This document shows, piece by piece, positions 12,656 through 43,088 of a DNA stretch of 64,000 bases. The stretch lies in contig JAUCBJ010004634.1 in assembly GCA_032718475.1 (NCBI GenBank), positions 1-64,000 of the forward strand, given 5' to 3'. How positions within the stretch are numbered: the first letter of the stretch is position 1; every line of letters begins with the position of its first letter. A program made the translations under genes and the position numbers. The stretch is from Nemertoderma westbladi. Taxonomy: Eukaryota > Animalia > Xenacoelomorpha. The notes under the pieces were generated by a model. The model was given only the letters and a program-made list of their open reading frames with translations, had not been told where the DNA came from and searched no databases.

Positions 12656-13584
12656 TACAGTACATTATATTAGTACATTAGTTCAGTTACAACAACAAAA
12701 GAGGGGATGGCGAAAGGCGCCGACCGAAAATTACTGACTGGGGCTATATTGATGCCTTGTCATACTTACAAAAGGGTGGTTTGTCGGGTGGTTAAAACCC
12801 TCATTAATGAAAAATTAATGAACAGAATTTAAAAAAATTAATGAACAGAATTTAAATAAGTATCAATAACCCAATTTGATTTTTAATATTGAAAAAAGTA
12901 TGATTACGATACAGAAACTGATTTAAAATCTACGTGTAACATATTTTATAAACTATTTAAAATGACGTACATAGTTTACCTAGGCCTACTTAAAAAAATT
13001 TAGGTTTTCAATAAAATTACCCTGCACATAATAATTTATGCATAATATATTTTTATGTGCATACAGCTTTGTATTAAATTATTAACAAAAATATATTTTA
13101 TGAAATATATTTTATAATACAACACTTTGTAGTTATCCGACACAGGTAGAGTTACATGTAGAGGGATATCGGGCTTCTTTGGACCTGGAACCATATTGAT
13201 CATTATGGATCCAGGGGAAGTCATATTGACGTTGGTACATTTTAAATTAAAACCTTGTAATTTAAATCACCGGTTTACCCAGCCGGCCGAGCCACGCAAT
13301 GGGCGTGTAAACCTCAGAAATATTAATTGTCAAAATTTGCAAAGCCCAATTGGCAAACCAAAGTTGGTTATAATTACCTTGACAACGGATATCTGATATC
13401 ACTTCTCTATCTGCAGTTACATTTTATTTATTTTAATTTGAACTGGTTGTGATGTGGCTAAATTTGGTTCTATCTTGAAACTTGAATGTTAAGTCCAACG
13501 CTTAAGCCTAGTGAGCTAAGCTACTACTATTACTGTTATTGGTATGCTACAATGCAGCTGCATTATATATATTACATATATTGA

Positions 13585-14295
13585 GAATGCTGTGCCGGCT
13601 TGTCGACAAAATTGCGCCGCCACAACTCCCTATCACTCATGACATTTGCTAGATAATCCGCATCTTCAAGGCCAGTTTCCTTACTTTAATTTAAGAGGCG
13701 TCTCATCAAGAAAGTCATGGGCTGTCCACCATGCTTATTCACTCCATGAGGCGGCCAAAAGCTCAAGATTGTGCACTAGCTGGTCTTAACGGCGAAAGCA
13801 ATGTCCTGCAAAGCAGAGGCGGCTTCGCTCAAGTGTCAAGCTAGGGGAAGGGGAGACTAAAGCACCTTCTATTTTTTATAGTTTCTGATTGAAAGTTTGG
13901 TCATTGTACTTGACACAATGAACTCGGCGTAAAATTCTTGTGAATGTGCCATCCAGAGATTTAATGTTGCGGATTGACGTCGAGCGTGGCGTGAGCATAT
14001 TATATGTTGAGCCTCCTGGGGGCTGGAGGGAAGAACTGGGGTGGGGGTCTTGCCACGTATATAAATAAAAGAGTGACATAAACTCTTTTATTTATATACG
14101 TGGCAAGACCCCCACCCCAGTTCTTCCCTCCAGCCCCCTGGAGGCTCAACATATCATATTCAGAGATTTGGTATCCTCTGCAGTTAGAGCCCAGTATGGA
14201 CTCCCATAGAGTACTGCAGTACTGGTACTAATGCTGGCCTAAATAATCGGATCTTAAGGTTCCGTTTTATTCTATTCTATGGGACTTCCAAATCC
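13585..14295 (-). mobile_element. Degraded RTE-clade non-LTR fragment, interrupted by a hairpin insertion
   Basis: Reverse-complement homology to 20700-21190 (SLDGTFTRILRRVHCVKYN). Confidence 0.8.
13963..14160. mobile_element. 198-bp foldback/MITE insertion with a 9-bp TSD
   Basis: ~78-bp near-perfect inverted arms (13997-14074 / 14082-14159) with a 7-nt loop. CAGAGATTT at 13954-13962 and 14161-14169. Confidence 0.8.
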
Positions 14296-19904: not shown

Positions 19905-21234
19905 GCTCTGATTGATCTCGATTGCTGCAAAGCTATACAATATAATTCTATTAAATCGCATCAGGGATCCCATTGAGAGACTGCTCCGTGGAAATCAGAA
20001 TGGGTTCCGTAAAGGTCGTGGGACCATGGAGCCAATTTTGGCACTTAGAAGGATACTTGAAGAGTTATCAAAAAGGAAAGACAGGCATCTGGCTGTTATC
20101 TTTGTTGACTTCTTCAAGGCCTTTGATTCATCTTACTTTCATTATATGGGATTCCTGATGAAATTATTGCAGCAATCAGATCAGTATACGATGGTTCGAC
20201 AACATTTGTGTCTACTGTTGACGGTGACACAGAACCATTTGAAGTGTTATGGGGCGTCCTCCAGGGAGACACACTTGCACCATTCTTGTTCATAATTGTT
20301 GTTGACTATGTTCTACGCATGTCCTTAGATCATCAAAATGATGATGGGGTGATGATAACTCCACCTACTGGCTCCAGAAGTCGAGGAAATCCTCGCAAGT
20401 ACCTAACTGATCTAGACTTTGCTGATGACTTAGGAGTACTCTCAGAATCATTAGAGGGAGCCCAACGGCTCCTCAGCTCATTAGAACATGCTGCTTCTGG
20501 TGTTGGTCTTTTTATTAACTGAAAGACCAAATTTTGACAGTTAACTTTGAAAGTCCTCAGCAAGTCTCTGATCGGATGAGCATAAGCTCAAAAGTTGGTA
20601 TGCGTGAGCATGTCGACGACTTCTGTTACCTGGGATCATGGATACGGAAGTTAGGTGAGCACCTTCGAATACGTAAGGGAAAGGCATGGGCGGCCTTGAA
20701 TAGGCTTTCCAGGATTTGGAAGTCACCGAGAATTAATCGGAAACTTAAGGTCCGATTATTTAGAGCAGCAGTAGTTCCAGTACTCCTCTATAGGAGTCCA
20801 TGCAGGGCTCTAACTGCTGAGGACACCAAATCTCTGGATGGCACATTCACAAGAATGCTACGCCGGGTTCATTGTGTTAAGTACAACGCACACATCTCTA
20901 ACCAGACACTATATAACATTGGAAGTGTCTCATTGGTTCCACCAAGCTTGACACTAGAACAAAATCGCCTCCGCTTTGCAGGACATTGCTTTCGCCGTGA
21001 GGACCAGCCAGTGCATAATCTTGTACTTTGGCAGCCTCATGGAGTGAATAAGCATGGTGGACAGCCCATGACTTTCTTGAGACGCATCTTAAAGGACACT
21101 GGCCTTGAAGATGCGGATCATCTAGCAAATGTCATGGGTGATAGGGAGTTGTGGCGGTGCAATTTTGTCGACAAGCCGGCACAGCATTCTTAAAAATGCA
21201 GCTGCAATGTAGCATGCCGATACTAGTAGTAGTA
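19905..21234 (+). mobile_element. 5'-truncated RTE-clade (RTE-X-like) non-LTR retrotransposon, frameshifted
   Basis: RT motifs QNGFRKGR, FVDFFKAFDS, GVLQGDTLAP, DLDFADD. (TAG)n tail. 12-bp TSD GCTCTGGACAAT at 19893-19904 and 21235-21246. Confidence 0.9.
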
Positions 21235-23652: not shown

Positions 23653-24224
23653 ATCTATTCGCTTTTCAATCATTTCCACTGTCTCCGATATAACTGCTGT
23701 CAAACATTATTATACATTTACCACATTCTTTACCAAAGACTTCAAGGTAAGTTAGTAATGCAAATGTTTTACAGTAGGAACTGGAACAGTTTATCTCGTA
23801 ATCTTCCATACTGGTTGATCGTCGGTTGACAACCTTGTCAAGTTATTAGTTATACTTGGATGGATATGCTGTTTCCTTATTTTAAATCACCAAAAATTAC
23901 AATAATTTAAGAATAGAATAGCAAATTAAAGCAAGTTAATATGTCGGACTACCGGTTATATACCATCCATAATCGGTTCAAGTTGTTTCGATCTATTGTG
24001 GTTTCTCCGCGATTTTCTTTTTCTACATAAATTTTGCAATTTAATTCCCTACCAAGCGTTTTTCTAGATTTGCGTTGTTTTATTTCGCTGTCTAATGCGT
24101 TCCAGAAAATGGCACCATGTTATTTTAGTAAATTTTGGGTTAGTATTGTCGGGTCCGTTTTGCCGACATGCCATTAATCGAGTATTATAGGAATGTTTGA
24201 ATCAAGACTGCGATAAGTGATCTG

Positions 24225-25311
24225 TTGAGAGACCAAATTTCCGTAAAGGTCGTGGGACCATGGAGCCTATTTTGGCTCTTAGAGGAATAATCGAAGAGTT
24301 ATTAATAACGAGAGACAGGCGACTGGCTATTATTTTTGTTGACTTCTTTAAAGCCTTCGACTCAGTTTTCACACCACGTATGTTCAGCTTACTGGTTGGA
24401 TATGGCATTCTTGAGGAAATTATTGCAGCTATCAGATCACTGTGCGATGGTCCCACCACATTTGTATCTACTGCTGATGGTGACACAGATCCATTCGAAA
24501 TCTTATGGGGAGTCCTTCAGGATGACACACTTGCACCGTTCTTATTAGGAATTGTTGTTGATTATGTTCTACGCATTTCCTTAGAGAACATCTTAAAGGA
24601 CACCGGCCTTGAAGATGCGGATGATCTAGCAAATGTCATGGGTGATAGGGAGTTGTGGCGGTGCACTTTTGTCGACAAGCCGGCATAGCATTCTTAATAC
24701 TGGCACTCCACCTACTGGCACAAGAAGTAGAGGAAATCCAGCAAAGTTCCTTACTGATCTAGATTTTGCTGATGACTTAGGGGTACTGTTAGAATCACTA
24801 GAGGGAGCCCAAAGGCTGCTCTGCTCAGTGGAGCAGGTTGCTTCTAGTGTTGGTCTTTTTGTAAACTACAAGAATACCAAAATTATTACTACAAGAAATG
24901 TTATTATTATTAACAAGTTATTATTACAAGAAATGTCTGATCGTAATGGTATAAGCTCTAAGGACGGCTTGCTTGAGCACGTGGATGACTTCTGCTACTT
25001 GGGATCTTGGAGCAGGAAGTCAGGTGAAGATACGTAAGGAGAAGGCATGGGCAGCATTGAATTGTTTGTCTAGGATTTGGAAATCCCATAGAAAAATCGG
25101 GATCTCAAGATTCGATTATGTAGGGCATCGCATGGTGGGCTTGTGCTTTGGCGGCCTCATGGAGAAAATATGCATGGTGGATAGCCCATGACTTTCTTGA
25201 GACGCCTCTTAAAGGACACTGTCATTGAAGGTGCAGATGATCTAGCAAATGTAATGGGTGATAGTAAGTTGTGGCGGCGTGATTTTGTTAACAAGCCGGC
25301 ACAGCATTCTT
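24225..25311 (+). mobile_element. Rearranged/internally deleted RTE-clade fragments (two 3' ends)
   Basis: FVDFFKAFDS, GVLQDDTLAP, DLDFADD. The 3'-end sequence ...aagccggca(t/c)agcattcttaa occurs at ~24690 and ~25305. Confidence 0.85.
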
Positions 25312-25515
25312 AATATATTATGGTATTATGTAGTAAGTATTAAGTTTTGTATTAAGTTAAGTATTATAATTAATTATAAGTTATTAAGTATTAAGTTTTT
25401 TCGTTCAGTTTTGCAGGGTAAGACACCCCCGTTTCCTTTCGTAAGTGTAAATTCTATAAGTTGACTAATGGTAGAACTTCTTTAATACAATATTGTTTAT
25501 TTGTTTATGTTTCAG

Positions 25516-25617
25516 ATACAACATGCAATCAAATTGAAAGTCAGTGTGACGAAGGATGCTGTGACACATGCACAGACAACACAAAGGCTAGGGTAGAACA
25601 TTCCAACCAATGTGTAG
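25516..25617 (+). CDS. Host gene exon: Cys-rich module
   Basis: ttcag|...|gtgag, phase 1-1, TTCNQIESQCDEGCCDTCTDN...NQCV. Confidence 0.75.
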
Positions 25618-26061: not shown

Positions 26062-26074
26062 GTAAGTGAATTAA

Positions 26075-28263
26075 TATAATATTTACTTATATCACTCTAA
26101 ATATATAATATTTACTTATATCACTCTAAAATATAATAATTATCACTCTAAAATATAATAATTATCACTCTAAAATATATAATACTTACTTATATCACTC
26201 TAAATATATATTATTTACTTATATCACTCTAAAATATATAATAATTACTTATATCACTCTAAAATATATAATAATTACTTATATCACTCTAAAATATAAT
26301 AATTATCACTCTAAAATATATAATACTTACTTATATCACTCTAAATATATATTATTTACTTATATCACTCTAAAATATATAATAATTACTTATATCACTC
26401 TAAAATATATAATAATTACTTATATCACTCTAAAATATAATAATTATCACTCTAAAATATATAATACCTACTTATATCACTCTAAATATATAATATTTAC
26501 TTATATCACTCTAAAATATAATAATTATCACTCTAAAATATATAATACTTACTTATATCACTCTAAATATATATTATTTACTTATATCACTCTAAAATAT
26601 ATAATAATTACTTATATCACTCTAAAATATATAATAATTACTTATATCACTCTAAAATATAATAATTATCACTCTAAAATATATAATACTTACTTATATC
26701 ACTCTAAATATATAATATTTACTTATATCACTCTAAAATATATAATAATTACTTATATCACTCTAAAATATATAATAATTACTTATATCACTCTAAATAT
26801 ATAATAATTACTTATATCACTCTAAAATATATAATAATTACTTATATCACTCTAAAGATATAATATTTACTTATATCACTCTAAAATATATAATAATTAC
26901 TTATATCACTCTAAAATATATAATAATTACTTATATCACTCTAAAATATATAATAATTACTTATATCACTCTAAAATATATAATAATTACTTATATCACT
27001 CTAAATATATAATATTTACTTATATCACTCTAAAATATAATAATTATCACTCTAAAATATATAATACTTACTTATATCACTCTAAATATATAATATTTAC
27101 TTATATCACTCTAAAATATAATAATTATCACTCTAAAATATATAATACTTACTTATATCACTCTAAATATATAATATTTACTTATATCACTCTAAAATAT
27201 AATAATTATCACTCTAAAATATATAATACTTACTTATATCACTCTAAATATATAATATTTACTTATATCACTCTATAATATAATAATTATCACTCTAAAA
27301 TATATAATACTTACTTATATCACTCTAAATATATAATATTTACTTATATCACTCTAAATATATAATATTTTCTTATATCACTCTAAAATATATAATACTT
27401 ACTTATATCACTCTAAATGTATAATATTTACTTATATCATTCTAAAATATATAATACTTACTTATATCACTCTAAATATATAATATTTACTTATATCACT
27501 CTAAATATATAATATTTTCTTATATCACTCTAAAATATATAATAATTACTTATATCACTCTAAATGTATAATATTTACTTATATCATTCTAAAATATATA
27601 ATACTTACTTATATCACTCTAAATATATAATATTTACTTATATCACTCTAAATATATAATATTTTCTTATATCACTCTAAATATATAATATTTACTTATA
27701 TCACTCTAAATATATAATATTTTTTTATATCACTCTAAAATATATAATACTTACTTATATCACTCTAAATGTATAATATTTACTTATATCATTCTAAAAT
27801 ATATAATAATTACTTATATCACTCTAAAATATATAATAATTACTTATATCACTCTAAAATATATAATAATTACTTATATCACTCTAAAATATATAATAAT
27901 TACTTATATCACTCTAAAATATATAATAATTACTTATATCACTCTAAAATATATAATAATTACTTATATCACTCTAAAATATATAATAATTACTTATATC
28001 ATTCTAAATATATACCGGTAATATTTACTTATATCACTCTAAAATATAATAATTATCACTCTAAAATATATAATACTTACTTATATCACTCTAAATATAT
28101 AATATTTACTTATATCACTCTAAATATATAATACTTACTTATATCACTCTAAATATATAATATTTACTTATATCACTCTAAATATATAATAATTACTTAT
28201 ATCACTCTAAAATATATAATAATTACTTATATCACTCTAAAATATATAATAATTACTTATATC
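26075..28263 (+). repeat. 29/30-bp AT-rich satellite, left array
   Basis: (tacttatatcactctaaaatatataataat)n, with shortened and variant units. Confidence 0.97.
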
Positions 28264-28490
28264 TTAATTATTCCAGAATATAAATCTTGTTTAATAGAGT
28301 CCAGATATACATTAAAGCAAAACTAAATTACAAGAAACCGGTTAACTACATAATATTGTACAAAGTTCGTATATAGAGGAGCTAAAATTCGTAAAACATC
28401 AAATTCTCTCTCAGAGTAAGAAATACTCTAATACGAACAGACGGTCAATCATCCATCTATTGTTATAAAAGTAATCTCAAGTCTCCAGGG

Positions 28491-28679
28491 TTACAGTTTT
28501 GTACTATCGAGTGTGCTATGCCTCGTCATTTCCGAATTGTAATTGACAGTTCTTTGATTGATAAAAGCCAAGCGCTGTTGGTTACCCCGGCAACAAACGC
28601 GACGAAAGTCCCGACGAAATTGTTGTGACATAATATTATATAATATTGGGTTCACTGCTGAGTTGAGATAAATTAACAC
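28491..28679 (-). pseudogene. Isolated last exon of a class A GPCR (TM7 + helix 8 + C-tail; TRH/ETH-receptor-like)
   Basis: [30 protein letters not shown] has NPxxY, the helix-8 FR motif and palmitoylation-type Cys. Preceded by ttctcatAG; followed by a UTR with ATTAAA at 28295-28290. Confidence 0.8.
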
Positions 28680-28697
28680 CTATGAGAATTCCTGGAT

Positions 28698-31600
28698 TCA
28701 GAGTAGGAATACCTCATCAAGGCCCGCCTGGTGGGGGGTGGTACCTAGGACAGATGTCGCGTTCCCTCTGACCACTGCAATTGAGAGCCGCTGGAAAAGG
28801 AATTCTGTGGACCTAGGTTCACCTGTTTCCTTGGCGATTCTCCGCCCTATCTCCCGCAGTACTGCGGTGCCTTCTGCACCGATTGGGCCTAAGGTCTCTA
28901 AGGCAATAGTGCGGAATAAGTGGTGGTGCTGGAGCGCAGCATACTTATTTCCTTTACTGGTCTCTGCCATTAAAGCGGCTGCACCTGCAGATTTACTTGT
29001 CTCGGGTAGATAGGAAGGAGCGAGGGTGTCCCTGCAAGTAAAGTCCCAAACGAGTGGGCGGCCTGAGGACCAAGGGGCAAAGGTCAAACCGTCTGGTGTC
29101 TTGCCGTCTTGTGAAAGTCCTCGAGGCTCCAAGGTGGAGGCAATGCCGGCTGATGAGAGTGCACGGTGAATGATGTCATTGGCCTCTGCATGACGGGTGT
29201 ATTTCCCATAATTGTGTAAGCAGCTGAGGCCATGACTTCCACTCGTGTCGACTTCCAACCCGCAACCCCTGCAGGAATGCTCCTCGCAAATAGGTGTACC
29301 CAAGCGGAGAGCTGCTCCCACCCGCAGCTGCTCATCACTGAGGCGAAGGCCTAGGGATGATACCGGCAGTGCCCTTAGCCAGTCCCCGGCGTGGTCTGCG
29401 GCGGCAGCTAGGAGACGAGCCTTCTCTTTTGCTGATGAGGCTTTGGTGATCAGTTCATCCTGTCGTGATGAGCACAGCGGGGCATCCCATCCTTTCTGAA
29501 TGGCTTGATTGATTGGTTCAGGAAAATCGGTAGGTAGTAGTTGCTTCGCAGCTATTAGGAGTGGGTTGGGGATGCTGGAAATGGAACTGGGTAGTAGGGT
29601 GTTAAGCAGTGGGATGCACCCATGGCTGGAAGCCAGGAAAGCTGGTAAAGCTACGTCGGATGTGCTTCTAACCCCCAGTCCGCCCAAAGATATTGGAAGG
29701 GAAGCCTGGGCCCAAGCATCGCCCCCAATCCTAGTGTTGAGCACAATTTGGCAGCACTGCCGAATCTTATCATCTAGAGACTTCAATCGAGGCGATCCAA
29801 AGGCGGGTGAACACCGCAGCACATACATCAACTTCGGAATGGCAAAGCAATGTCTGAGTAGGTATAGGGCGTCATGCGCCGATAGAAGGTGGAGGCGGTC
29901 GGCGAACCTAGAGAGGTCTGATTCCTTCTCTTCAAGGATCTTCTCCATGGCTGAATCTCCTAGGGGTGATCCAAGCAACAGCGCATCAGAAAAATCGATT
30001 GGTTTAATGCTTGGTGTGATGGCATCAAACAGAGCTGTTGTCTCTTCTTTCAGTTCTAAGGGAAAGTGCTTGCCAAAGATTAACTCACACTTGGATGCCT
30101 TGACCATAAGCCCTAGCTTTGCTGCCTCGGCTATGACCCTCTTCAGGTCAGAAGCAACAACAGATGGTGTTCCACCCAAGGAACCGTCATCCAGGAACCA
30201 CACGTTGAGAGGAGATTCCATGCTATCGACAAGTTCAATTGTGTCGTTGCTGAAGAATAGAGAGGCTAGTGGGTCTCCCTGTTGCATACCATCGTCAGAG
30301 GCAATTGTTGTCCCATTGTAGAATAGGAGAGAGGGTTGCGAATATGACTGATATGCCAGGTTGTATAGTGGTGGGAGGTTCTTTAGCACTGCCCTCAAGG
30401 CTGGTCCACGGTGAATACTGTTGAAGGCATTTGAGAAATCAATTTTGATCATGACTGTCTCTCTCTCTATTGACTCACTGAGGAAACGCCTGGCTGCATG
30501 TACTGCTGCTTCTGCACCCCGGGGGGTCCCGAACCCTAGCTGATGGGGTCCTAGCTTTAAACCGGAATGCTTTGCCGCTGAATGGCAGCCTGTTTTGGCG
30601 GTAAGTCGACGCAGAGTGCACCCCACGGCTATGGGGCGAACTCCACCTGCTGGTTTAGTGAAAGCACAAAGCCTGGCGCCATAGAGGTAAGGGAGAACTT
30701 CCTGGGGCACTCCTCCCTTTAGCATGATATTAGCTACCGATGTCATAGCCTTGAGGGAAGCCAGGGCAGCATCCCCCGCTGATGATGAGATCATGTCCTT
30801 GAGGAACTGAGGACGGCAGTTGTCGGGACCTGGTGCCGAGCCATTGGGGAATAGCTTGATTGATTTTAGAACCTCTGGGTAAGATAGCTCGAGGGTCGGG
30901 ACATCTGCTTCCTCTAATGACGGTACTCCGTGGAAGTCATCTGATGGGCGTGTAGGATGAAGGAGTCGGAGGGCTTCAAGGGTCTCTGAGGTGGCTGGGG
31001 CTATAGTGGCTGATGAGGATGCTAGTCGTGCAGCTGCTTTCACATTTCCTTCTTCTATCTTAGAGGCTATCAATTTCCCAAGCATGTCATCCGAGGATTG
31101 TTGAGTCTTGGGCTTCAGATGGGATGGAAGGCTAGTCGTAGGCAGTACTAGTATTTCTTTGGTGTTCTTGACCATCTCTTCAAATTCCAACAGTTGGTCC
31201 TTTACCTTGGCTGTGAGTGATTTGCAGGCTGGACCGATAGCCCTCCGGCCACGTCTGGACCTTGATCCCTGGGAGGGTACTCTGAGAGAGAATGGAAAGG
31301 CCAGCAGGTTTAACCAGTTTGACTGACTGTTGTTGAGGACGATGGCATCACAGAGACTACTGTAAAGTGTGGCTGCTTTTAGTCTTGCACCCCTGGGGAT
31401 ACGAGTCAGGGTTCTGATCCTAGTGAGGGTTTCGAATGCACTGCTAAGTGAATCTGATATGGCGCTCTGGCTGGCTACCACAGGAGCAGGGGATGGAGTG
31501 TCATTGGTAAACGGTTGGGACAGTAGTCCGGGTGACCCTTGAGACATGGCTGGCTGATTAGAGTGTAAGTCGGGTGGAATTGCAGCTTCAGCAGGAGCGG

Positions 31601-32687
31601 AGGAACCGGTGGCTGGAAATGTAATGATGGAACCTGACCCAGGACAAGAGGTGCCTTCAGTGGATCTGTGTTTGCGCAGCCCTCCCTTGGGGTTGACACA
31701 GCATAATTTAGAGCAGGTGGTGCATGGGAACTTGAGGGACAGTCCTCCACTGGTAACGGTGGGAGGTTGTCCCGGCTCTAGCGGTGCAATTGATGGAGTA
31801 TGGGTAAATAGGGGTGGATGAGAGTTCGGGACCAGAGTGGGGTCTCCAATTTGATTGTTATCCTGGGAGGATTCGGCTGATTGGATTGGAGGTTGTTTCG
31901 GCTCTAGCGGTGAGATTGATTGTGTATGGTTAAGCACGGGTGGGTGAGAATTCGGAAACGGGGTGGGATCTCCAATTGGAGGTGGTGTAGGTGTCGATGC
32001 CTTCTGTTGATTGGCTGACCAAACTAGAGGGGCATTTCTGGAAATATCAGAATACAGATCACTACGATGCTTGGAAATGGTAATATCATTGATATCCTCA
32101 AAATCCGATCGTGAGTAACCTTCAATACACCACTTTGCATACCTACAGATATATACCCCACATTGATAGGTGTTGTATTGCACCTTTTGAATGGAGGGAT
32201 AAACGGTAATTGGGGGGAGGTCCACATTGTAATGAATGGCAACAAGATGCACCCATTCTTTGATAGAATCAACAACTGTTTGGTTAGAGCCCCCCAGTGA
32301 GTCGAAAAACCAAATTGCTGACTTTAAAGGGGAGTAAACAGCAAGGGTCCAGTGGCAATTGTTTACATTTATAGGGAAAAATATGAAATCGTTATCAAAA
32401 ACTGGCACTGAAGCGCCCTTGCTCAGACTCTGTATGTTCTTAAAGCCGCCTTCTTGAAAGATGTCAACGAAATGAGAGTTAAAAACTCTTGCATGGTCGT
32501 TGTAGCCTAAACACAAGCTGGATATAACTGCTTCAACAATGTTATCTGTCAACCAGTTTTGCCCATTTAACGATTCTATATCGTGCCTCGAGAGAGGCAG
32601 ACCTCCAAATTCGTACATGTCTTCAGATTCGGGAGGTGGGTCTGCTAGAAGCTCACTATCAGTGAGACTAATGCAGGGTATTTCCAT
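28698..32687 (-). CDS. Ulp1/SENP (C48) protease - zinc finger - reverse transcriptase - CCHC - restriction-like endonuclease polyprotein
   Basis: 1329-aa intact ORF. Protease: WLTDNIV, FPINVNNCHW, FFDSLG, QYNTYQCGVY. ZnF: CTTC...RKH...CPGS. RT: GGVRPIAVG, DFSNAFNS, GMQQGDPL, WFLDDG. RLE: CRGC...HGLSC, RH, PDG...WDFT, KGNKY, ETLG, RLSIAVVRGNA. Confidence 0.9.
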   Translation of the reverse strand: MEIPCISLTDSELLADPPPESEDMYEFGGLPLSRHDIESLNGQNWLTDNIVEAVISSLCLGYNDHARVFNSHFVDIFQEGGFKNIQSLSKGASVPVFDNDFIFFPINVNNCHWTLAVYSPLKSAIWFFDSLGGSNQTVVDSIKEWVHLVAIHYNVDLPPITVYPSIQKVQYNTYQCGVYICRYAKWCIEGYSRSDFEDINDITISKHRSDLYSDISRNAPLVWSANQQKASTPTPPPIGDPTPFPNSHPPVLNHTQSISPLEPKQPPIQSAESSQDNNQIGDPTLVPNSHPPLFTHTPSIAPLEPGQPPTVTSGGLSLKFPCTTCSKLCCVNPKGGLRKHRSTEGTSCPGSGSIITFPATGSSAPAEAAIPPDLHSNQPAMSQGSPGLLSQPFTNDTPSPAPVVASQSAISDSLSSAFETLTRIRTLTRIPRGARLKAATLYSSLCDAIVLNNSQSNWLNLLAFPFSLRVPSQGSRSRRGRRAIGPACKSLTAKVKDQLLEFEEMVKNTKEILVLPTTSLPSHLKPKTQQSSDDMLGKLIASKIEEGNVKAAARLASSSATIAPATSETLEALRLLHPTRPSDDFHGVPSLEEADVPTLELSYPEVLKSIKLFPNGSAPGPDNCRPQFLKDMISSSAGDAALASLKAMTSVANIMLKGGVPQEVLPYLYGARLCAFTKPAGGVRPIAVGCTLRRLTAKTGCHSAAKHSGLKLGPHQLGFGTPRGAEAAVHAARRFLSESIERETVMIKIDFSNAFNSIHRGPALRAVLKNLPPLYNLAYQSYSQPSLLFYNGTTIASDDGMQQGDPLASLFFSNDTIELVDSMESPLNVWFLDDGSLGGTPSVVASDLKRVIAEAAKLGLMVKASKCELIFGKHFPLELKEETTALFDAITPSIKPIDFSDALLLGSPLGDSAMEKILEEKESDLSRFADRLHLLSAHDALYLLRHCFAIPKLMYVLRCSPAFGSPRLKSLDDKIRQCCQIVLNTRIGGDAWAQASLPISLGGLGVRSTSDVALPAFLASSHGCIPLLNTLLPSSISSIPNPLLIAAKQLLPTDFPEPINQAIQKGWDAPLCSSRQDELITKASSAKEKARLLAAAADHAGDWLRALPVSSLGLRLSDEQLRVGAALRLGTPICEEHSCRGCGLEVDTSGSHGLSCLHNYGKYTRHAEANDIIHRALSSAGIASTLEPRGLSQDGKTPDGLTFAPWSSGRPLVWDFTCRDTLAPSYLPETSKSAGAAALMAETSKGNKYAALQHHHLFRTIALETLGPIGAEGTAVLREIGRRIAKETGEPRSTEFLFQRLSIAVVRGNATSVLGTTPHQAGLDEVFLL

Positions 32688-32828
32688 GATTGATCGTTTG
32701 AAGGAAGGAGGCCTTTAGTTTGTTTAGCTAGTCGCATTCATTTGGACGTGCAGACGCACCATCACCGCCTACCATCGACAATAAATGGACATGGTTCTGT
32801 TTTTATATACAATCTAACTCAAAAAACC

Positions 32829-35800
32829 ATTACTTATATCACTCTAAAATATATAATAATTACTTATATCACTCTAAAATATATAATAATTACTTATATC
32901 ACTCTAAAATATATAATAATTACTTATAACACTCTAAAATATATAATATTTTCTTATATCACTCTAAAATATATAATATTTTCTTATATCACTCTAAAAT
33001 ATATAATATTTTCTTATATCACTCTAAAATATATAATAATTACTTATAACACTCTAAAATATATAATATTTACTTATATCACTCTAAAATATATAATATT
33101 TTCTTATATCTCTCTAAAATATATAATAATTACTTATATCACTCTAAAATATATAATAATTACTTATATCACTCTAAAATATATAATAATTACTTATATC
33201 ACTCTAAATATATAATATTTACTTATATCACTCTAAAATATATAATATTTACTTATATCACTCTAAAATATATAATATTTTCTTATATCACTCTAAAATA
33301 TATAATAATTACTTATATCACTCTAAATATATAATATTTACTTATATCACTCTAAAATATATAATATTTACTTATATCACTCTAAAATATATAATATTTT
33401 CTTATATCACTCTAAAATATATAATAATTACTTATATCACTCTAAAATATATAATATTTACTTATATCACTCTAAAATATATAATATTTTCTTATATCAC
33501 TCTAAAATATATAATATTTACTTATATCACTCTAAATGTATAATATTTTCTTATATCACTCTAAAATATATAATATTTTCTTATATCACTCTAAAATATA
33601 TAATAATTACTTATATCACTCTAAAATATATAATAATTACTTATATCACTCTAAAATATATAATATTTTCTTATAACACTCTAAATGTATAATATTTACT
33701 TATATCACTCTAAAATATATAATATTTACTTATATCACTCTAAAATATATAATATTTTCTTATAACACTCTAAATGTATAATATTTTCTTATATCACTCT
33801 AAAATATATAATATTTTCTTATATCACTCTAAAATATATAATAATTACTTATATCACTCTAAAATATATAATATTTACTTATATCACTCTAAATATATAA
33901 TATTTTCTTATATCACTCTAAAATATATAATAATTACTTATATCACTCTAAATATATAATATTTACTTATATCATTCTAAAATATATAATATTTACTTAT
34001 ATCACTCTAAAATATATAATATTTTCTTATAACACTCTAAATGTATAATATTTTCTTATATCACTCTAAATATATAATATTTTCTTATATCACTCTAAAA
34101 TATATAATATTTTCTTATATCACTCTAAAATATATAATAATTACTTATATCACTCTAAAATATATAATATTTACTTATATCACTCTAAAATATATAATAT
34201 TTTCTTATATCACTCTAAAATATATAATAATTACTTATATCACTCTAAATATATAATATTTACTTATATCATTCTAAAATATATAATATTTACTTATATC
34301 ACTCTAAAATATATAATATTTTCTTATATCACTCTAAAATATATAATAATTACTTATATCACTCTAAATATATAATAATTACTTATATCACTCTAAAATA
34401 TATAATATTTTCTTATATCACTCTAAAATATATAATAATTACTTATATCACTCTAAATATATAATATTTACTTATATCACTCTAAAATATATAATAATTA
34501 CTTATATCACTCTAAATATATAATAATTACTTATAACACTCTAAAATATATAATATTTTCTTATATCACACTAAAATATATAATAATTACTTATATCACT
34601 CTAAATATATAATATTTACTTATATCACTCTAAAATATATAATATTTACTTATATCACTCTAAAATATATAATATTTTCTTATAACACTCTAAATGTATA
34701 ATATTTTCTTATATCACTCTAAAATATATAATATTTTCTTATATCACTCTAAAATATATAATAATTACTTATATCACTCTAAAATATATAATAATTACTT
34801 ATATCACTCTAAAATATATAATATTTTCTTATATCACTCTAAAATATATAATAATTACTTATATCACTCTAAAATATATAATAATTACTTATATCACTCT
34901 AAAATATATAATAATTACTTATATCACTCTAAATATATAATAATTACTTATATCACTCTAAATATATAATACTTACTTATATCACTCTAAAATATATAAT
35001 ATTTACTTATATCACTCTAAATATATAATATTTACTTATATCACTCTAAAATATATAATATTTACTTATATCACTCTAAAATATATAATATTTTCTTATA
35101 ACACTCTAAATGTATAATATTTTCTTATATCACTCTAAAATATATAATAATTACTTATATCACTCTAAAATATATAATAATTACTTATATCACTCTAAAA
35201 TATATAATAATTACTTATATCACTCTAAATATATAATAATTACTTATATCACTCTAAAATATATAATATTTACTTATATCACTCTAAATATATAATATTT
35301 ACTTATATCACTCTAAAATATATAATATTTACTTATATCACTCTAAATATATAATATTTACTTATATCACTCTAAAATATATAATATTTTCTTATAACAC
35401 TCTAAATGTATAATATTTTCTTATAACACTCTAAATGTATAATATTTACTTATATCACTCTAAAATATATAATATTTACTTATATCACTCTAAAATATAT
35501 AATATTTTCTTATAACACTCTAAATGTATAATATTTTCTTATATCACTCTAAAATATATAATATTTTCTTATATCACTCTAAAATATATAATAATTACTT
35601 ATATCACTCTAAAATATATAATATTTTCTTATAACACTCTAAATGTATAATATTTTCTTATATCACTCTAACATATATAATATTTTCTTATAACACTCTA
35701 AATGTATAATATTTACTTATATCACTCTAAAATATATAATATTTACTTATATCACTCTAAAATATATAATATTTTCTTATAACACTCTAAATGTATAATA

Positions 35801-38322
35801 TTTTCTTATATCACTCTAAAATATATAATATTTTCTTATATCACTCTAAAATATATAATAATTACTTATATCACTCTAAAATATATAATATTTACTTATA
35901 TCACTCTAAATATATAATATTTTCTTATATCACTCTAAAATATATAATAATTACTTATATCACTCTAAATATATAATATTTACTTATATCATTCTAAAAT
36001 ATATAATATTTACTTATATCACTCTAAAATATATAATATTTTCTTATAACACTCTAAATGTATAATATTTTCTTATATCACTCTAAATATATAATATTTT
36101 CTTATATCACTCTAAAATATATAATATTTTCTTATATCACTCTAAAATATATAATAATTACTTATATCACTCTAAAATATATAATATTTACTTATATCAC
36201 TCTAAAATATATAATATTTTCTTATATCACTCTAAAATATATAATAATTACTTATATCACTCTAAATATATAATATTTACTTATATCATTCTAAAATATA
36301 TAATATTTACTTATATCACTCTAAAATATATAATATTTTCTTATATCACTCTAAAATATATAATAATTACTTATATCACTCTAAATATATAATAATTACT
36401 TATATCACTCTAAAATATATAATATTTTCTTATATCACTCTAAAATATATAATAATTACTTATATCACTCTAAATATATAATATTTACTTATATCACTCT
36501 AAAATATATAATAATTACTTATATCACTCTAAATATATAATAATTACTTATAACACTCTAAAATATATAATATTTTCTTATATCACACTAAAATATATAA
36601 TAATTACTTATATCACTCTAAATATATAATATTTACTTATATCACTCTAAAATATATAATATTTACTTATATCACTCTAAAATATATAATATTTTCTTAT
36701 AACACTCTAAATGTATAATATTTTCTTATATCACTCTAAAATATATAATATTTTCTTATATCACTCTAAAATATATAATAATTACTTATATCACTCTAAA
36801 ATATATAATAATTACTTATATCACTCTAAAATATATAATATTTACTTATATCACTCTAAAATATATAATATTTTCTTATATCACTCTAAAATATATAATA
36901 ATTACTTATATCACTCTAAATATATAATAATTACTTATATCACTCTAAAATATATAATAATTACTTATATCACTCTAAAATATATAATAATTACTTATAT
37001 CACTCTAAAATATATAATAATTACTTATATCACTCTAAATATATAATAATTACTTATATCACTCTAAATATATAATACTTACTTATATCACTCTAAAATA
37101 TATAATATTTACTTATATCACTCTAAATATATAATATTTACTTATATCACTCTAAAATATATAATATTTACTTATATCACTCTAAAATATATAATATTTT
37201 CTTATAACACTCTAAATGTATAATATTTTCTTATATCACTCTAAAATATATAATAATTACTTATATCACTCTAAAATATATAATAATTACTTATATCACT
37301 CTAAAATATATAATAATTACTTATATCACTCTAAATATATAATAATTACTTATATCACTCTAAAATATATAATATTTACTTATATCACTCTAAATATATA
37401 ATATTTACTTATATCACTCTAAAATATATAATATTTACTTATATCACTCTAAAATATATAATATTTTCTTATAACACTCTAAATGTATAATATTTTCTTA
37501 TATCACTCTAAAATATATAATATTTTCTTATATCACTCTAAAATATATAATAATTACTTATATCACTCTAAAATATATAATAATTACTTATATCACTCTA
37601 AAATATATAATATTTTCTTATATCACTCTAAAATATATAATAATTACTTATATCACTCTAAAATATATAATAATTACTTATATCACTCTAAAATATATAA
37701 TAATTACTTATATCACTCTAAATATATAATATTTACTTATATCACTCTAAAATATATAATATTTACTTATATCACTCTAAAATATATAATATTTTCTTAT
37801 AACACTCTAAATGTATAATATTTTCTTATATCACTCTAAAATATATAATATTTTCTTATATCACTCTAAAATATATAATAATTACTTATATCACTCTAAA
37901 TATATAATATTTTTTTATATCACTCTAAAATATATAATATTTTCTTATAACACTCTAAATGTATAATATTTTCTTATATCACTCTAAAATATATAATATT
38001 TACTTATATCACTCTAAAATATATAATATTTACTTATATCACTCTAAAATATATAATATTTTCTTATATCACTCTAAAATATATAATAATTACTTATATC
38101 ACTCTAAAATATATAATATTTACTTATATCACTCTAAAATATATAATATTTTCTTATAACACTCTAAATGTATAATATTTTCTTATATCACTCTAAAATA
38201 TATAATAATTACTTATATCACTCTAAACATATAATATTTACTTATATCACTCTATAAAATGTATAATATTTACTTATATCACTCTAAAAGATATAATATT
38301 TACTTATATCACTCTAAAATAT
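32829..38322 (+). repeat. 29/30-bp AT-rich satellite, right array, with a ~2017-bp higher-order duplication
   Basis: Same unit as the left array. Identical variant runs and translated ORFs recur at a 2017-bp offset (33774/35791, 34041/36058, 34694/36711). Confidence 0.97.
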
Positions 38323-38656
38323 ATTTTATTTTTTATATCGCTTTATCGTTTTTATATTTTAAATATAAAATGCTTTGAATGCTTCCGAGCACCAGCCAGA
38401 ATTGTTATAGCCAATGTCTGAATGACTGAGTGCTCAAAGTATCAATGAATAGTCCAAGCAGTCTAAGAATAAAATTGCTTACAGTATTACCTATAAAAAA
38501 AATCGGGATATCATTTTTTAAAACTTTATCGCTACTTTTTATCAAACTCGCGTCACTCAATAAATGTAATAAATACCTAGAAAATCGTGAAAAAATAGTC
38601 CTAATATTTTTTCCGAAGTAGGCCTATAAATATTTATTATATTCATTTTCATACAG

Positions 38657-38763
38657 TTGGTCTGGCAACTGGAGCGTGGGTAGACATGACAGCGACCACC
38701 GAAGAGGATTGCAACGTATTCGGATTAAATTGCGATATAACATGCCATTGGAAGTGGAGAGGG
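38657..38763 (+). CDS. Host gene exon: C-type lectin domain, middle part
   Basis: atacag|...|gtgagt, phase 1-0, GLATGAWVDMTATTEEDC...CHWKWRG. Bridges the phases of exons 25849 and 50165. Confidence 0.8.
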
Positions 38764-40225
38764 GTGAGTAGAACTGCCTCATGTAGTGGCCTCGTCGTAT
38801 CACACGGCTCGCCCCATCCAAAAGACGTGTGCAAAAAATTGCAAAAAAGGGTCAAAAAAAATAAAAAATGTTCTTCGGCCGTTAGGCCAGAGATTGTACA
38901 CAAAGTCTAACGACTTATTTCCAATGCGGTCCCCCCAGAACTATACTCCCAGAGGAAACTCCAATACTCATTTAGCTACCACTTAAGGATGCCACCAGAG
39001 ATCCCCCATGGTTTTTCTCTTTAAAGCATTCTTGCCGAAACCAAAATTCGTCTGGCCCCCATGCGATTATTGAACCCAAGAAAAACCCGAGAGAAAGACA
39101 ATGCAAGGCCCAAGGGAATGAAAGATAAATTCAGACATTGCGTTTAACCAAAGAGTGACCTAACTACGTACGTACTATAACATTACTAGGTGGGGTAAAG
39201 GCTCGGACATTGGAAATGAAACCTCAGTAAAAAGCGACCTAAGTAACAATACTAATATATTGTATATATATACGGGGAGAGATAGTCATTTGTAGGGCTC
39301 CTCACTGATTGGTTCATTCCGGTTTAAAAACCTGTAAACCTTTGATATGAGTAGGGAATACAACTTAATTGAAACAGCGTCTGCCATAGTCTACTATGTT
39401 AAAGACTTCACCAAACGACTCTCGCCCCGCCCACTTACTATGGTTACCATTGTGCATATGTAACATATGTCACCACTGTGTGTGGTATAAGACCAGTCCA
39501 TAGACGGAAGTAATTTAATTAATTAGTATATTCTGGTTGGCGTTTGACCTTGAACCACAATAGGTAAAACCCAATATAGTAAGTAGGTGGGTTGCAGACG
39601 TTTGGTAAAGTCTTTAACATGATAGACTATGACAGACGCAACAACTAAAAAAGGTAAATAAACACCGACTAACGGCAGCAACCGACAATACTACAATTCT
39701 ACACTTATTGCTAAGTAACAAGTTGTGGGGCGAGCCGCAAAGTGAGTGTCAGGTTATAGTATTTATAATATTATTTTTAATTTGATTATTGTACTTATAT
39801 GGGGAGGGGCGAGCCATGACGTGAGTGAAAGCATATAGGTGTCATCAGCGAGTTGTCTTATCACCGTCTGTCACCGCCATACATTTTTGATTGCTAATAA
39901 CTCAGTTATTTCGTGATTTGATGAAAAAATGGGGCGAGCCATGTGTTATAATATTATTTTTAATTTGATTATTCTACTTGATGGGAGGGGGCGAGCCATG
40001 AAGTGTGTGAAAGCATATAGGTGTCTTCGGCGAGTTGTCTTATCGCCGTCTGTCGTCGTCATAATTTTTTTATTGCTAATAAATCAGTTATTCCAAGATT
40101 CGATAATTTATAATTATAGGTATTTATAATTTTATTATTTTACTTAAATCCGTCACCATTTATATTTTAAAATTTCTCCCATCACCTTACCCGTTTATCC
40201 CGCTATCACCATCTGTCCATTCTTC

Positions 40226-40582
40226 TTAATCCCCCACATCATCGCCTTTGCCACCACCATCCAACATCTCCCAAATTCCCAACAACATTTCGATTTTCTT
40301 CTCCATCGCTTTCTCCCGTGCACAGCTCTCCACCTCCTGTGCTCTTCTATCTCCCTCAGCCTCCATTTCCAACTCCCAATCTTCTCCCCACACACTCGAG
40401 TTATTTTTCGCCTCTTCCTCCAAATAATAATTTTTCTCTTTCTCTTCCCACTCATTTCTCGGATTCAACAATCTCTCCACCCGCGCTTCTTTTTTTTCTC
40501 TCTCGTAAATCGCAACCAGTATCATCTCATTCTCCTTATCAATCTCATCCGCTACAATCTCATTTTCTCCCTCCTCATCCAT
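40226..40582 (-). CDS. Acidic, Glu-rich orphan protein in the Polinton-like segment
   Basis: 118-aa ORF with ATG, tandem with the 244-aa ORF; low complexity. Confidence 0.4.
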   Translation of the reverse strand: MDEEGENEIVADEIDKENEMILVAIYEREKKEARVERLLNPRNEWEEKEKNYYLEEEAKNNSSVWGEDWELEMEAEGDRRAQEVESCAREKAMEKKIEMLLGIWEMLDGGGKGDDVGD

Positions 40583-40686
40583 GTATAATAAATAAAGTAA
40601 ATATGTGTATAATAATAAATGTATAATACTATAAATATATAAATTTATATAACATTTTAATAATATTTATTTCAATCGATAATTTA

Positions 40687-41421
40687 TTATATCAACAAAT
40701 AATTTAACAATTTAAAATTTTCCACCACAAAATAATAATTATTATTTAACCATGTCTGGCTCGTTACAGCGACATAGCTAGGTGTTATATTCGCGATGAG
40801 ATCAATTTTTCGCTTAAGCGCTTGTTCTTTCATGGCTTGAGGTGTTTTCATCTGAGTGCTCACATCCCCAATGAGGGTATCAATATCCTTATAATCATTC
40901 TTTTTTTCAGCACCGTCTCCCCGTTCATTTTCCGCAATCGTTGGCAACCAGATTTTTTTCTTGCCCATTTTCTTAGCGGTGACTTTTACTGCCTCGGACG
41001 TCTTCAGCTGACTAGTGTTGTTCAGCATTTCAACTTTCATTAGTTCCTTGTCCGCTAATTCATCAATCACAGCCTCAACAACTAACTTTTTAATCGGTAG
41101 AAAGTCACACCCAGTCGGAATATTGTGGCCTTCGTACTTCTGTAATTCCTTAATTATCTTGACAATTGTGTAATCTTGACATAATATTTGTGTTGTTTCA
41201 ATGGATGAAAATAACCTCGGTGTCGAAGTTGTGGCGTTGAAGTCGAAGCTGTCGAAATTACCTCTGGTGTATTCCTTGTAATATTCAATAGCTATTTTCT
41301 TATAATTGAGGAAGTCGAATAGGAATCTTATGTTCTGGTAAGTAAGACTTACTGATTCTTGCACGCCGTTGCGGCCTTTGTTGGCATCACCCCCAGCGAT
41401 TGAATCGAACGTATTTCCCAT
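40687..41421 (-). CDS. Orphan 244-aa protein in the Polinton-like segment
   Basis: Long open ORF in AT-rich context with an A-rich start context. No recognisable motif. Confidence 0.55.
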   Translation of the reverse strand: MGNTFDSIAGGDANKGRNGVQESVSLTYQNIRFLFDFLNYKKIAIEYYKEYTRGNFDSFDFNATTSTPRLFSSIETTQILCQDYTIVKIIKELQKYEGHNIPTGCDFLPIKKLVVEAVIDELADKELMKVEMLNNTSQLKTSEAVKVTAKKMGKKKIWLPTIAENERGDGAEKKNDYKDIDTLIGDVSTQMKTPQAMKEQALKRKIDLIANITPSYVAVTSQTWLNNNYYFVVENFKLLNYLLI

Positions 41422-42263
41422 TAAATGCTTTTATTTTTATTCCTTCCTCCACAAACTCTTACCTGTAGCCACTGTTACGTATGGGGCGGGTGCCCTGCTA
41501 GTAGAGCTACTGCTTAATGGCATCATTTTTGGTTGTGATGGTTTCACAGATTCCATCAACAAATTTTGTGAAATATTAAGTGTAAAAATAATCAATAATA
41601 TTGTGCTAAAACAATGTGCGAAAAATATGAAATAATGAATTAACCCGAATGATGAAATAAAGTATTTTACGGCGTATTTATAATAGAATGATGGGCTATC
41701 GGGATATCGGGTTTATTTTAACCACTCAACCAGTTTAATCGCTATTGTCCTGCGATAATTTTTTTTGAAAAACTTCCCAAATTTCAATGGAAATATTTAT
41801 TTACGCTTAAATTGGTTGACGTAAGTGGTAACAGCTTTTCGCTGGTGATTATTGTGACCAGCATAAATTTCTAGACACATACACCAAATTTCCACAGAAT
41901 ATTACTCATGGTTAAATATGTATGGTAATATGGTGGTATTAACCGCGTAGCTTCTTGGAAGTTTCATAATTTTATGCATGAGCGAATTTAATTTAATGCT
42001 GGCATCATAAAACTTTCTCGTCAAATATTTACTGTAATCATTTAATAAAAATGAACGATCACGGCGAGCGAACGAATGACGTTTTAAAGACACACCCATT
42101 ATAAATATACCCATTGGCCAAAATATTATTGATTAAGCGGTATGACAATGTCAGGGCAGCTTGAGTCTATAGATAAGATCATTTTTTCAAATATATTATT
42201 CATTATTTCATTTCTTTTCGGAATTTTTTTAGGTAAAATACGCCGTAATAAAAATTGTTTCCA

Positions 42264-42780
42264 ATGATACAACCTGAAAATTGTTACTGAGGGCCTAATT
42301 CAATTATTCCAATAAAAATTGAATTGTTAACCCCAACAGCTCGAGTGCCTGTATGTGGAATGTGGATCATATAGTCCGGCTGGGATTGACATATATAGCG
42401 CTGTGAATAGAACAATAGAGCCGTACTCGCGAATATTAATTGAGACCGGCTTTAAAATATATTTACCCGTCAATTATTTTGGAAGAATTACATCGACTTT
42501 TACCTTGGCAAAAATTGGAATCGATGTTGTCGAATGTGTGTTGGATGCGAGCGTTGCACGCAGTAATATAGATCAACTTGTAATCATATTGGCTAACAAC
42601 ACATCCAAGGAATACGTTGTTACAGCGGGCGATAAAATTTGTCAGCTTATATCCCAACAATGTAATGCGCCAATACTCTATGTTTCTAATATTTATTCGG
42701 ATGATTATTTTGGGTTTTTACCGACGAATTTAACGCCATATAGGGAAGATATTAATTCGGCAGTTCACCGTACATATTAA
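42264..42780 (+). pseudogene. Degenerate trimeric dUTPase-like gene
   Basis: ARVP..GS..PAGIDIYS (motif I), IETG, GRI, GDKICQLI (motif IV). An N-terminal stop and a 7-nt duplication (ATGTGGA x2, 42353-42366) shift the frame. Confidence 0.75.
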
Positions 42781-43088
42781 ATATGTGACATTAAACGCAT
42801 AACATCGGTTGGTCAATACTATTTCAATACTCTTACACGCGTTTATAAAGCCTAGTCAATAGAGCATATAAATAGGATAATTTGTCAGTTCAGTAAATTT
42901 TGGTTGGCTAAACGGTTTCTAGTACAGGGTGGCTGACTGGGTATTGGATATATTTATCTACATATAATCTACCGCATCTCCTTCATCGGTATAATATTAA
43001 TTATGAATTAAATTTAAAGCATAAAGCAATATTGTAAATATATTTTCTGTACCTACGTTAATAATATATTATAATTGTAATAATTTTA

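What the first reader, a model, noticed from the sequence alone, without database searches (positions are those of the whole stretch)
28264..28697. Retrotransposon 3' end is the terminal exon and 3' UTR of a neuropeptide GPCR
Seen: only 18 nt after the element's stop codon, an acceptor-like ttctcatAG precedes an open 62-codon TM7/helix-8/C-tail ([27 protein letters not shown]). A ~225-nt UTR with ATTAAA ~25 nt before the satellite junction follows, all inside the candidate TSD. Known: YLNSA.NP..YN.MS..FR is the TM7-H8 signature of TRH- and ETH-receptor-like class A GPCRs, and 3' transduction is well known for L1. Inference: either a source element sits in the last intron of that GPCR and reads through to its poly(A) site, or the family has permanently adopted a host GPCR 3' end as its UTR. 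I know of no report of this for a CRE element. The fragment is antisense in the host intron, so it could also yield antisense RNA to the receptor.
Basis: partly seen in the sequence, partly recalled or inferred. Interest (0 to 1): 0.8.

Follow-up and report, generated by a model that had tools for sequence, protein, structure and literature searches.

The report
Jumping gene wears receptor's last exon
A retrotransposon in an animal genome ends in the intact last coding piece of a hormone-type receptor gene, the same join is present in three separately sequenced samples and likely in most copies of this young family, and it was likely picked up when the element's RNA ran on into a neighbouring gene, a route well described for human L1 and SVA elements.

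Summary
A 4.56-kb CRE-like element (Ulp1-RT-CCHC-REL ORF, 12-bp target duplication) sits in a 30-bp satellite inside a predicted host intron. Eighteen bases after its stop come 62 open codons of class A GPCR TM7/helix 8/C-tail (best solved match TRH receptor, E 3e-8) and 227 further bases.

It is neither a nested gene nor a misjoin. No TM1-6 exon lies in the window, and contigs from 3 samples bridge the ORF-exon join. In 3 runs (2 samples) the tail has the element's depth, roughly 6-11 times that of single-junction contigs; about 12-14% of depth leaves 10 nt after the stop. The tail looks like a trait of a young family (7 differences in 4,564 nt).

A paralogue contig shows 11 synonymous and no amino-acid changes over 10 codons, so the exon was coding until recently.

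Not supported: ATTAAA as the family's poly(A) signal (3' paths diverge at five places, three upstream of it; no poly(A)). The parent gene was not found and expression is untested.

Best reading: 3' transduction that founded a subfamily, as for SVA_F1 H10_1; no report for a CRE element in 9 searches.

The parts
28491..28679 (-). Captured class A GPCR terminal coding piece: TM7 (from its middle), helix 8, Cys-Cys, 32-residue C-tail, stop
   Evidence: no variant listed in 28494-28679 in 4 of 4 runs (table 3)
28680..28687 (-). Acceptor-like 8 nt, inferred remnant of the parent's last intron
   Evidence: sequence; weak pyrimidine tract; lies beyond the branch point at 28688
28688..28697 (-). 10 nt after the stop shared with a minor branch that then leaves: inferred native 3' end of the element
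   Evidence: record 6 (X1, depth 57.5); a record of depth about 90 in X2 inferred from depth bins
28264..28490 (-). AT-rich (30% GC) non-coding tail, likely the GPCR 3' UTR; paths diverge at 28362, 28311, 28308, 28291; 29-nt indel at about 28432-28461; ATTAAA 28295-28290
28698..32714 (-). Intact 1,338-codon ORF of a CRE-like non-LTR retrotransposon
32046..32555 (-). Ulp1/SENP-type (Peptidase_C48) domain with His, Asp and Cys motifs
   Evidence: PF02902 E 3.6e-14; SENP1/Ulp1 E 1.5e-11; motifs
30078..30656 (-). Reverse transcriptase core
   Evidence: PF00078 E 7.6e-10; QGDP and FLDD motifs
29043..29273 (-). CCHC knuckle and restriction-like endonuclease motifs
   Evidence: against the SLACS/CRE pattern quoted in PMC12857005
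32715..32827 (-). 5' non-coding remnant; the window copy is 5'-truncated, run contigs continue at least 114 nt further
   Evidence: tables 7 and 8 (record 16)
28252..28263 (.). Target-site duplication, 3' side (12 bp)
32829..32840 (.). Target-site duplication, 5' side (12 bp), preceded by one extra base at 32828
26074..28263 (.). 30-bp satellite, about 77 copies (target array, left part)
32830..38339 (.). Same 30-bp satellite, about 185 copies (target array, right part)
25516..25617 (+). Predicted host exon upstream of the 13-kb intron that holds the insertion
38657..38763 (+). Predicted host exon downstream of that intron

Best explanation
A CRE-like retrotransposon ends in the last coding piece and downstream sequence of a class A GPCR gene, most likely because one full-length copy landed about 8 bases before that exon's predicted splice acceptor, its RNA likely ran on through the exon, and that read-through RNA likely founded a young subfamily in which most copies carry the tail. 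Shown: the anatomy, the GPCR homology, the absence of other GPCR exons in the window, the same ORF-exon join in 3 samples, equal depth of ORF and tail, near identity of the window copy to run contigs, several 3' divergence points. Inferred: copy number (about 6-11 per single-junction contig), the capture point at 28688/28687, read-through as the route, recent capture, and target-primed insertion of the window copy (5' truncation, one extra base, 12-bp duplication). It would follow that this enzyme primes on foreign RNA some 330-430 nt beyond its own end. The captured piece is most likely a non-coding passenger.
For: Join bridged by X1 record 4 (28362-28717), X2 record 13 (28456-28717), X3 (978 nt, 28392-29369) and X4 (770 nt, 28622-29391): 4 of 4 runs, 3 samples, 3 studies. 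Tail/ORF-end depth 415/446 (X1), 568/561 (X2), one contig in X3; contigs holding individual junctions have depth 37.7 and 66.7 (X1) and 81.5 (X2), ratios 6.2-11. A minor branch leaves right after 28688, 12-14% of depth. 7 fixed differences from run contigs in 4,564 nt. ORF ends like its relatives and 0 of 7 related metagenome loci and 0 of 120 homologous proteins carry a GPCR piece, so the tail is not ancestral. X4 record 26 (1,696 nt, depth 61) is a paralogue: 8 differences in 62 nt, then 10 codons with 11 synonymous and 0 amino-acid changes (my hand translation table 7), so the exon's lineage was under protein-level selection until recently. Two copies (window, X1 record 1) share 17 nt beyond the main 28308 divergence, which implies a template longer than most copies. 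Precedent: SVA_F1 H10_1 with at least 13 3'-transduced copies (PMC3287187).
Against: No parent locus was seen: no contig in 4 of 4 runs joins the exon to an element-free intron at 28687 (low-depth branches can be pruned or filtered). The acceptor is weaker than 8 of 8 host acceptors, and the paralogue has no intron at this position. No poly(A). Contig depth is not a copy number by the tool's own statement and varies about 370-580 along the element in X2. The branch at 28688 has only 2 loose letters, so it may be a variant and not a native end. The divergence points may be indels or other repeats, not 3' ends. No run covers 28264-28290 or the satellite junction. X4 holds only 28311-29391 at depth 60, so the multi-copy state is not in every sample.
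Confidence: 0.68

Rival explanations
1. Same read-through, but the founding copy landed inside the coding TM7 of a GPCR gene with no intron there, knocking out that allele; the AG is a coincidence.
For: The closest paralogue reads through this position in frame for at least 10 codons with no AG or stop (hand translation); weak acceptor; 6 of the 11 bases 28687-28677 match the paralogue (by hand).
Against: Those 11 bases include an in-frame stop where the paralogue has His, in a piece otherwise free of amino-acid change over the 10 codons compared; 6 of 11 is weak.
Confidence: 0.11
2. Template jump: the reverse transcriptase began on the 3' end of a GPCR mRNA or pre-mRNA and switched to the element RNA, making a chimeric master copy with no source element in the gene.
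For: No element-bearing parent locus was identified; the element part ends only 10 nt after its stop, which would fit a jump to the RNA end. Chimeras of this kind are recalled for L1 (no call).
Against: A spliced mRNA would not supply an in-frame stop and AG exactly at a codon boundary before the exon; several 3' extents suggest a genomic template.
Confidence: 0.1
3. The tail is kept by selection on the element or host: it is translated by reinitiation or spliced in, or supplies RNA that regulates the receptor family.
For: Frame open to a natural stop with no variant listed in 4 runs; synonymous-only divergence from the paralogue; in this copy the host pre-mRNA would carry it antisense.
Against: The family is so young (0.15% differences) that intactness needs no selection; the only Met lies 17 codons in; two in-frame stops separate it from the ORF; no RNA data.
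Confidence: 0.05
4. A real nested antisense GPCR gene whose last exon lies here, or an assembly misjoin.
For: Intact frame and acceptor-like site; upstream exons beyond the window end (over 35 kb away) cannot be excluded from the window alone.
Against: 0 of 2,541 open stretches other than the tail score below E 0.2 against a 23-sequence GPCR profile, whereas 7 of 7 held-out 40-residue control pieces scored below 1e-6 (controls are closer to the profile than this family may be); same satellite and a duplication on both sides; tail at element depth; join in 3 samples.
Confidence: 0.03

Closest known systems
SVA_F1 source element H10_1 with 3'-transduced AluSp (PMC3287187, passages read)
   Same: One source element reads through a weak end into flanking DNA and founds at least 13 copies that carry the flank; tailed and tail-less forms coexist.
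   Different: SVA is non-autonomous and moved by L1; the cargo is an Alu, with poly(A). Here the element is autonomous, REL-type, the cargo is a protein-coding exon, and no poly(A) is seen.
L1 3' transduction (recalled; listings only)
   Same: Flanking host sequence, including exons, moves inside one target duplication.
   Different: L1 uses an APE endonuclease and primes on poly(A); transductions are usually a minority of copies, here the majority of depth.
CRE-group elements SLACS, CRE1/2, CZAR, MoTeR, FoTeR (PMC12857005, PMC4640811, passages read)
   Same: Single ORF with RT, CCHC knuckle and C-terminal REL; insertion in a tandem repeat; best named homologue is annotated SLACS protein (P0006, E 6e-206, 46%).
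   Different: N-terminal Ulp1 domain; motif spacing departs slightly (CX2CX9HX3CX8RHA); host-exon tail; no shared target seen among the few junctions.
R2 elements (PMC13580325, passages read)
   Same: REL-type target-primed reverse transcription.
   Different: R2 protein binds its own 3' UTR to position the RNA end; here only about 10 nt of own 3' UTR appear to precede foreign sequence.
Human TRH receptor (PDB 7X1T) and arthropod receptors with the same TM7 motif (P0003, P0004)
   Same: YLNSAxNPxxYNxMSxxFRxxFRxxC signature; 73% identity over about 30 residues to P0003/P0004.
   Different: Only the last half of TM7 onward is present; C-tail unrelated; subfamily not assignable. The ETH-receptor label is recalled, no call named these proteins so.

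Membership tests
CRE group non-LTR retrotransposon | Single ORF with RT followed by CCHC knuckle and restriction-like endonuclease | tested here: met
CRE group non-LTR retrotransposon | REL motif spacing of SLACS/CRE1/2 as quoted in PMC12857005 | tested here: inconclusive
   order and core residues match; spacings 9, 8 and 15 lie one outside the quoted ranges and RHA replaces RHD/N
CRE group non-LTR retrotransposon | RT phylogeny groups with named CRE elements | not tested
   no named reference set held; only a SLACS-annotated best named hit
CRE group non-LTR retrotransposon | Target-specific insertion in a repeat | tested here: inconclusive
   window copy lies in a satellite; loose ends are not that satellite by eye
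3' transduction | Non-element sequence between element end and 3' target duplication | tested here: met
3' transduction | Cargo traces to a parent locus directly downstream of a source element | not testable with these tools
   no genome held; no parent branch in 4 runs
3' transduction | Poly(A) tail after a downstream poly(A) signal | tested here: not met
   no A tract at the junction; most depth diverges upstream of ATTAAA. This feature comes from L1/SVA and need not hold for REL elements
3' transduction | Same cargo on several independent insertions | tested here: met
   distinct 3' continuations at 28362, 28311, 28308, 28291, 28264 and distinct 5' junctions at 28956 and 32827; depth ratios are indirect
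Class A GPCR | TM7 NPxxY motif followed by amphipathic helix 8 and Cys | tested here: met
TRH/ETH receptor family | Orthology by full-length phylogeny and the TM7 Arg of the TRH receptor | not testable with these tools
   position lies upstream of the captured piece; the paralogue in X4 has His there (hand translation)
Nested antisense GPCR gene | Upstream TM1-6 exons on the same strand | tested here: not met
   within the window only

The most novel reading that the evidence does not exclude
A restriction-endonuclease-type (CRE) retrotransposon whose own 3' UTR is only about 10 bases and whose enzyme copies whatever RNA lies downstream, starting at variable foreign 3' ends without poly(A); a read-through master copy has spread a neuropeptide-receptor exon around the genome, in both orientations relative to host transcripts, making the family a dispersed source of small RNAs against that receptor and its parent gene possibly still alive with the element in its last intron.
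Probability: 0.25. Interest if true: 0.72.

Novelty: new variant of a known kind. Interest (0 to 1): 0.5.

Why it matters
Exon mobilisation by 3' read-through is documented mainly for L1 and SVA. REL-type elements such as R2 bind their own 3' UTR to start copying (PMC13580325). A CRE-like family whose successful form ends in several hundred bases of host gene would show relaxed template-end recognition in an early-branching group, give a very young natural case of exon dispersal in an animal outside mammals (host taxon not determined), and point to an enzyme worth testing for copying foreign 3' cargo. It also sets up a direct test of whether transposon silencing spills over onto a captured receptor gene. 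If the parent turns out to be a dead allele and the tail a passenger, it is a neat but modest example.

Tried and rejected
No whole genome is held, so the proposed genome-wide BLASTn could not be run. No RNA holder listed among 6 runs: no evidence on expression either way. The parent protein was not found: 2 hits among 13 candidates and 155 hits among 1.84 billion representatives, best 150 listed, none above 76% identity. An exact 24-nt exon pattern gave 0 metagenome contigs. 7 related metagenome loci (37-53% identity) carry no GPCR piece; only 2 of the 7 reach the ORF's last residues. The open frame alone was rejected as evidence. Rfam: 0 matches at E 0.5 over 28200-32900. Ulp1 in relatives: 0 of the 120 listed homologues (of 483; most are shorter than the query) and 0 of 285 candidates. 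X4's single locus as the source gene: its depth equals the paralogue's, which fits, but its 3' continuation leaves at 28311 and does not match the longer tails, and the rest of the element is not covered there; left open. X4 record 28 (depth 23, exon from 28671 with a 44-nt AT-rich loose end) was considered as the element-free allele and rejected: no AG at the join, stops in frame (by hand). The paralogue was seen in 1 of 4 runs; absence elsewhere is no evidence. Literature: 9 searches showed no listing on 3' transduction by a CRE element; subscription journals and Repbase are not covered, and no supplements were read. Earlier scan notes: 4 look-ups, none on this feature; one search showed 8 of 26 fitting notes.

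Full report
Observation. The window holds a minus-strand element at 28264-32827 with an intact 1,338-codon ORF (28698-32714). It has Ulp1 protease (PF02902, E 3.6e-14) and RT (PF00078, E 7.6e-10) domains and a C-terminal CCHC/REL motif set. A 30-bp satellite lies on both sides, with a 12-bp duplication at 28252-28263 and 32829-32840 and one extra base at 32828. Eighteen bases after the stop an AG precedes 62 open codons (28679-28494), then a stop and 227 nt of 30% GC sequence with one ATTAAA 26 nt before the satellite. There is no poly(A) tract. The whole insertion lies in a predicted 13-kb intron of a + strand gene; the flanking exons are open and phase-compatible.

Is it a GPCR piece? The open frame alone is unremarkable (318 of 1000 shuffles) and Pfam does not call it. 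The best solved match is human TRH receptor TM7-helix 8 (E 3.3e-8), and 155 representatives match at E 0.001. Two top hits scanned carry 7tm_1; two short ones do not. The subfamily cannot be fixed from about 30 conserved residues.

Is it a nested gene or a misjoin? tblastn with 151 GPCR hits found only the tail. A profile of 23 longer hits scored the tail at E 1.1e-19 and nothing else of 2,541 open stretches below E 0.2, while 7 of 7 held-out control pieces scored below 1e-6. No genome is held, so I laid contigs of 4 of the 6 listed public DNA runs (3 samples, 3 studies; X2 and X3 are one sample; one may be the window's source) on the element. All 4 runs bridge the ORF-exon join by more than 31 letters on each side, counting from the stop/acceptor at 28680-28697 for X3 and X4 and from the acceptor for X1 and X2, whose contigs end at 28717. 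The join is real.

Is it a family trait? In X1-X3 depth is level across ORF end and tail (415 vs 446; 568 vs 561; one 978-nt contig at 378). Contigs holding individual junctions have depth 37.7 and 66.7 in X1 and 81.5 in X2, ratios of 6 to 11. The tool warns that contig depth is no copy number, and it varies along the element (about 370-580 in X2), so this is a rough guide. A branch leaves right after 28688 at depth 57.5 in X1; a record of depth about 90 at the same place in X2 is inferred from depth bins, not displayed. That is 12-14% of depth. I read it as tail-less copies, which puts the native end about 10 nt after the stop; it has only 2 loose letters and could be a variant. The window copy differs from the X1-X3 contigs at 7 of 4,564 positions, none in the GPCR codons, and is 5'-truncated by at least 114 nt. 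A second 5' junction at 28956 is shared by X1 and X2. The ORF's last residues are ordinary for its relatives, and no GPCR piece was found in 120 listed homologues or 7 related loci. The tail is thus a recent addition carried by most of the family in those two samples. X4 differs: it holds only 28311-29391, at depth 60, followed by 954 nt of other sequence.

Where does the RNA end? Paths leave the window sequence at 28362 (about a third of depth or more in X1-X3), 28311 (X4), 28308 (main, X1-X3) and 28291 (X1, depth 67); the window copy runs to 28264, and no run covers 28264-28290. Three of these five points lie upstream of the ATTAAA, so it is not the family's main signal. The window copy and X1 record 1 share 17 nt beyond 28308, which suggests a template longer than most copies. 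Some of these points may be indels or shared repeats.

How old is the capture? X4 record 26 (1,696 nt, depth 61) matches 28615-28676 with 8 differences. Its loose ends, translated by hand, continue in frame: downstream the same ten residues [10 protein letters not shown] with 11 synonymous base changes and no amino-acid change, then divergence; upstream ten more TM7-like codons with no intron. With about a quarter of random changes synonymous, 11 of 11 has a chance near 2e-7 to 2e-6. These codons lay outside the aligned stretch, so they did not drive its detection. The captured exon therefore comes from a gene kept under protein-level selection until recently, a paralogue of record 26. I could not read the 8 differences inside the aligned stretch.

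What is missing. No contig shows this exon behind an element-free intron. In X1-X3 such a branch could have been pruned at a tenth of the depth; in X4 it could not easily, so either X4's locus is the gene itself with a truncated element in its last intron, or the parent is absent or filtered. Against the first, X4's 3' continuation does not match the longer tails. The acceptor is weaker than 8 of 8 host acceptors and the paralogue lacks the intron. No RNA run was listed.

Mechanism. Most likely (0.68) a full-length copy inserted about 8 nt before the last acceptor of a GPCR gene, read through the exon, and that RNA, or a daughter master copy, produced the burst; the window copy then entered the satellite by target-primed reverse transcription. 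Rivals: insertion into an intronless TM7 (0.11), template jump (0.10), selected function of the tail (0.05), nested gene or misjoin (0.03).

Comparison. The closest worked case is SVA_F1 H10_1, whose read-through into an AluSp gave at least 13 transduced copies (PMC3287187, passages). R2 binds its own 3' UTR to position the RNA end (PMC13580325, passages), which is why a REL-type element with a foreign tail is of note. The CRE label rests on domain order, a near match to the SLACS/CRE motif pattern (PMC12857005, passages) and a SLACS-annotated homologue; no tree with named references was built. Ulp1 domains are described for NeSL and one Utopia (PMC4640811, passages). Nine searches of the held library listed no report of 3' transduction by a CRE element; the library is incomplete, and no supplements were read. 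L1 transduction and L1 chimeras are recalled.

Verdict. Real, family-level capture of a recently functional GPCR exon by a young CRE-like element; a new variant of a known process; parent locus, expression and any effect on the receptor unshown. Interest 0.5.

Noticed in passing
window 32046-32555 (-): Ulp1/SENP-type protease with catalytic motifs at the N-terminus of a CRE-like ORF; none of 120 listed homologues matched it. The paper read names such domains for NeSL and one Utopia only.
   Followed up: partly
window about 19386-59216 (+): Large multi-exon host gene with short Cys-rich, mostly phase-1 exons and weak Ig-like matches near 59080; no confident Pfam family in 9 exons scanned.
   Followed up: partly
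runs X1-X3 over window 29042-29231: A second, diverged (about 83% identical) element family at depth 158-378, plus further relatives as loose ends.
   Followed up: no
run X4 record 28 over window 28622-28671: 94-nt contig, depth 23, with the exon starting mid-codon behind an AT-rich 44-nt end: possibly an extremely 5'-truncated, exon-only copy.
   Followed up: partly
window about 28432-28461: 29-nt indel in the tail: absent bases in X4 and, from a loose end and depth bins, in about 40% of X2 depth.
   Followed up: partly
runs X1, X2 at window 28956: 5' junction of a truncated copy whose flank starts with bases resembling both the element just inside the junction and the window's target duplication (10 of 12 by eye).
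   Followed up: no
window 2321-6403 (+): 1,360-codon ORF with DUF1759, likely BEL/Pao gag region, ending without an intact pol.
   Followed up: no
window about 40100-46200: Cluster of intronless ORFs with a dUTPase (PF00692, E 1e-12) and a weak endonuclease VII match; may be a decayed Maverick-like element (label recalled, not tested).
   Followed up: no
window 46644-48794 (-): hAT transposase remnant with BED finger and dimerisation domain.
   Followed up: no
window 13584-13962, 19912-21234, 24221-25315, 53848-54755, 55208-56100: Several fragments of one LINE family (RVT_1, DUF6451), 75-95% alike.
   Followed up: no
window 13997-14159: 163-nt near-perfect palindrome (94% self-complementary) interrupting a LINE fragment.
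   Followed up: no
window 59268-63206: Second intronic satellite, 53-bp unit, about 75 copies.
   Followed up: no
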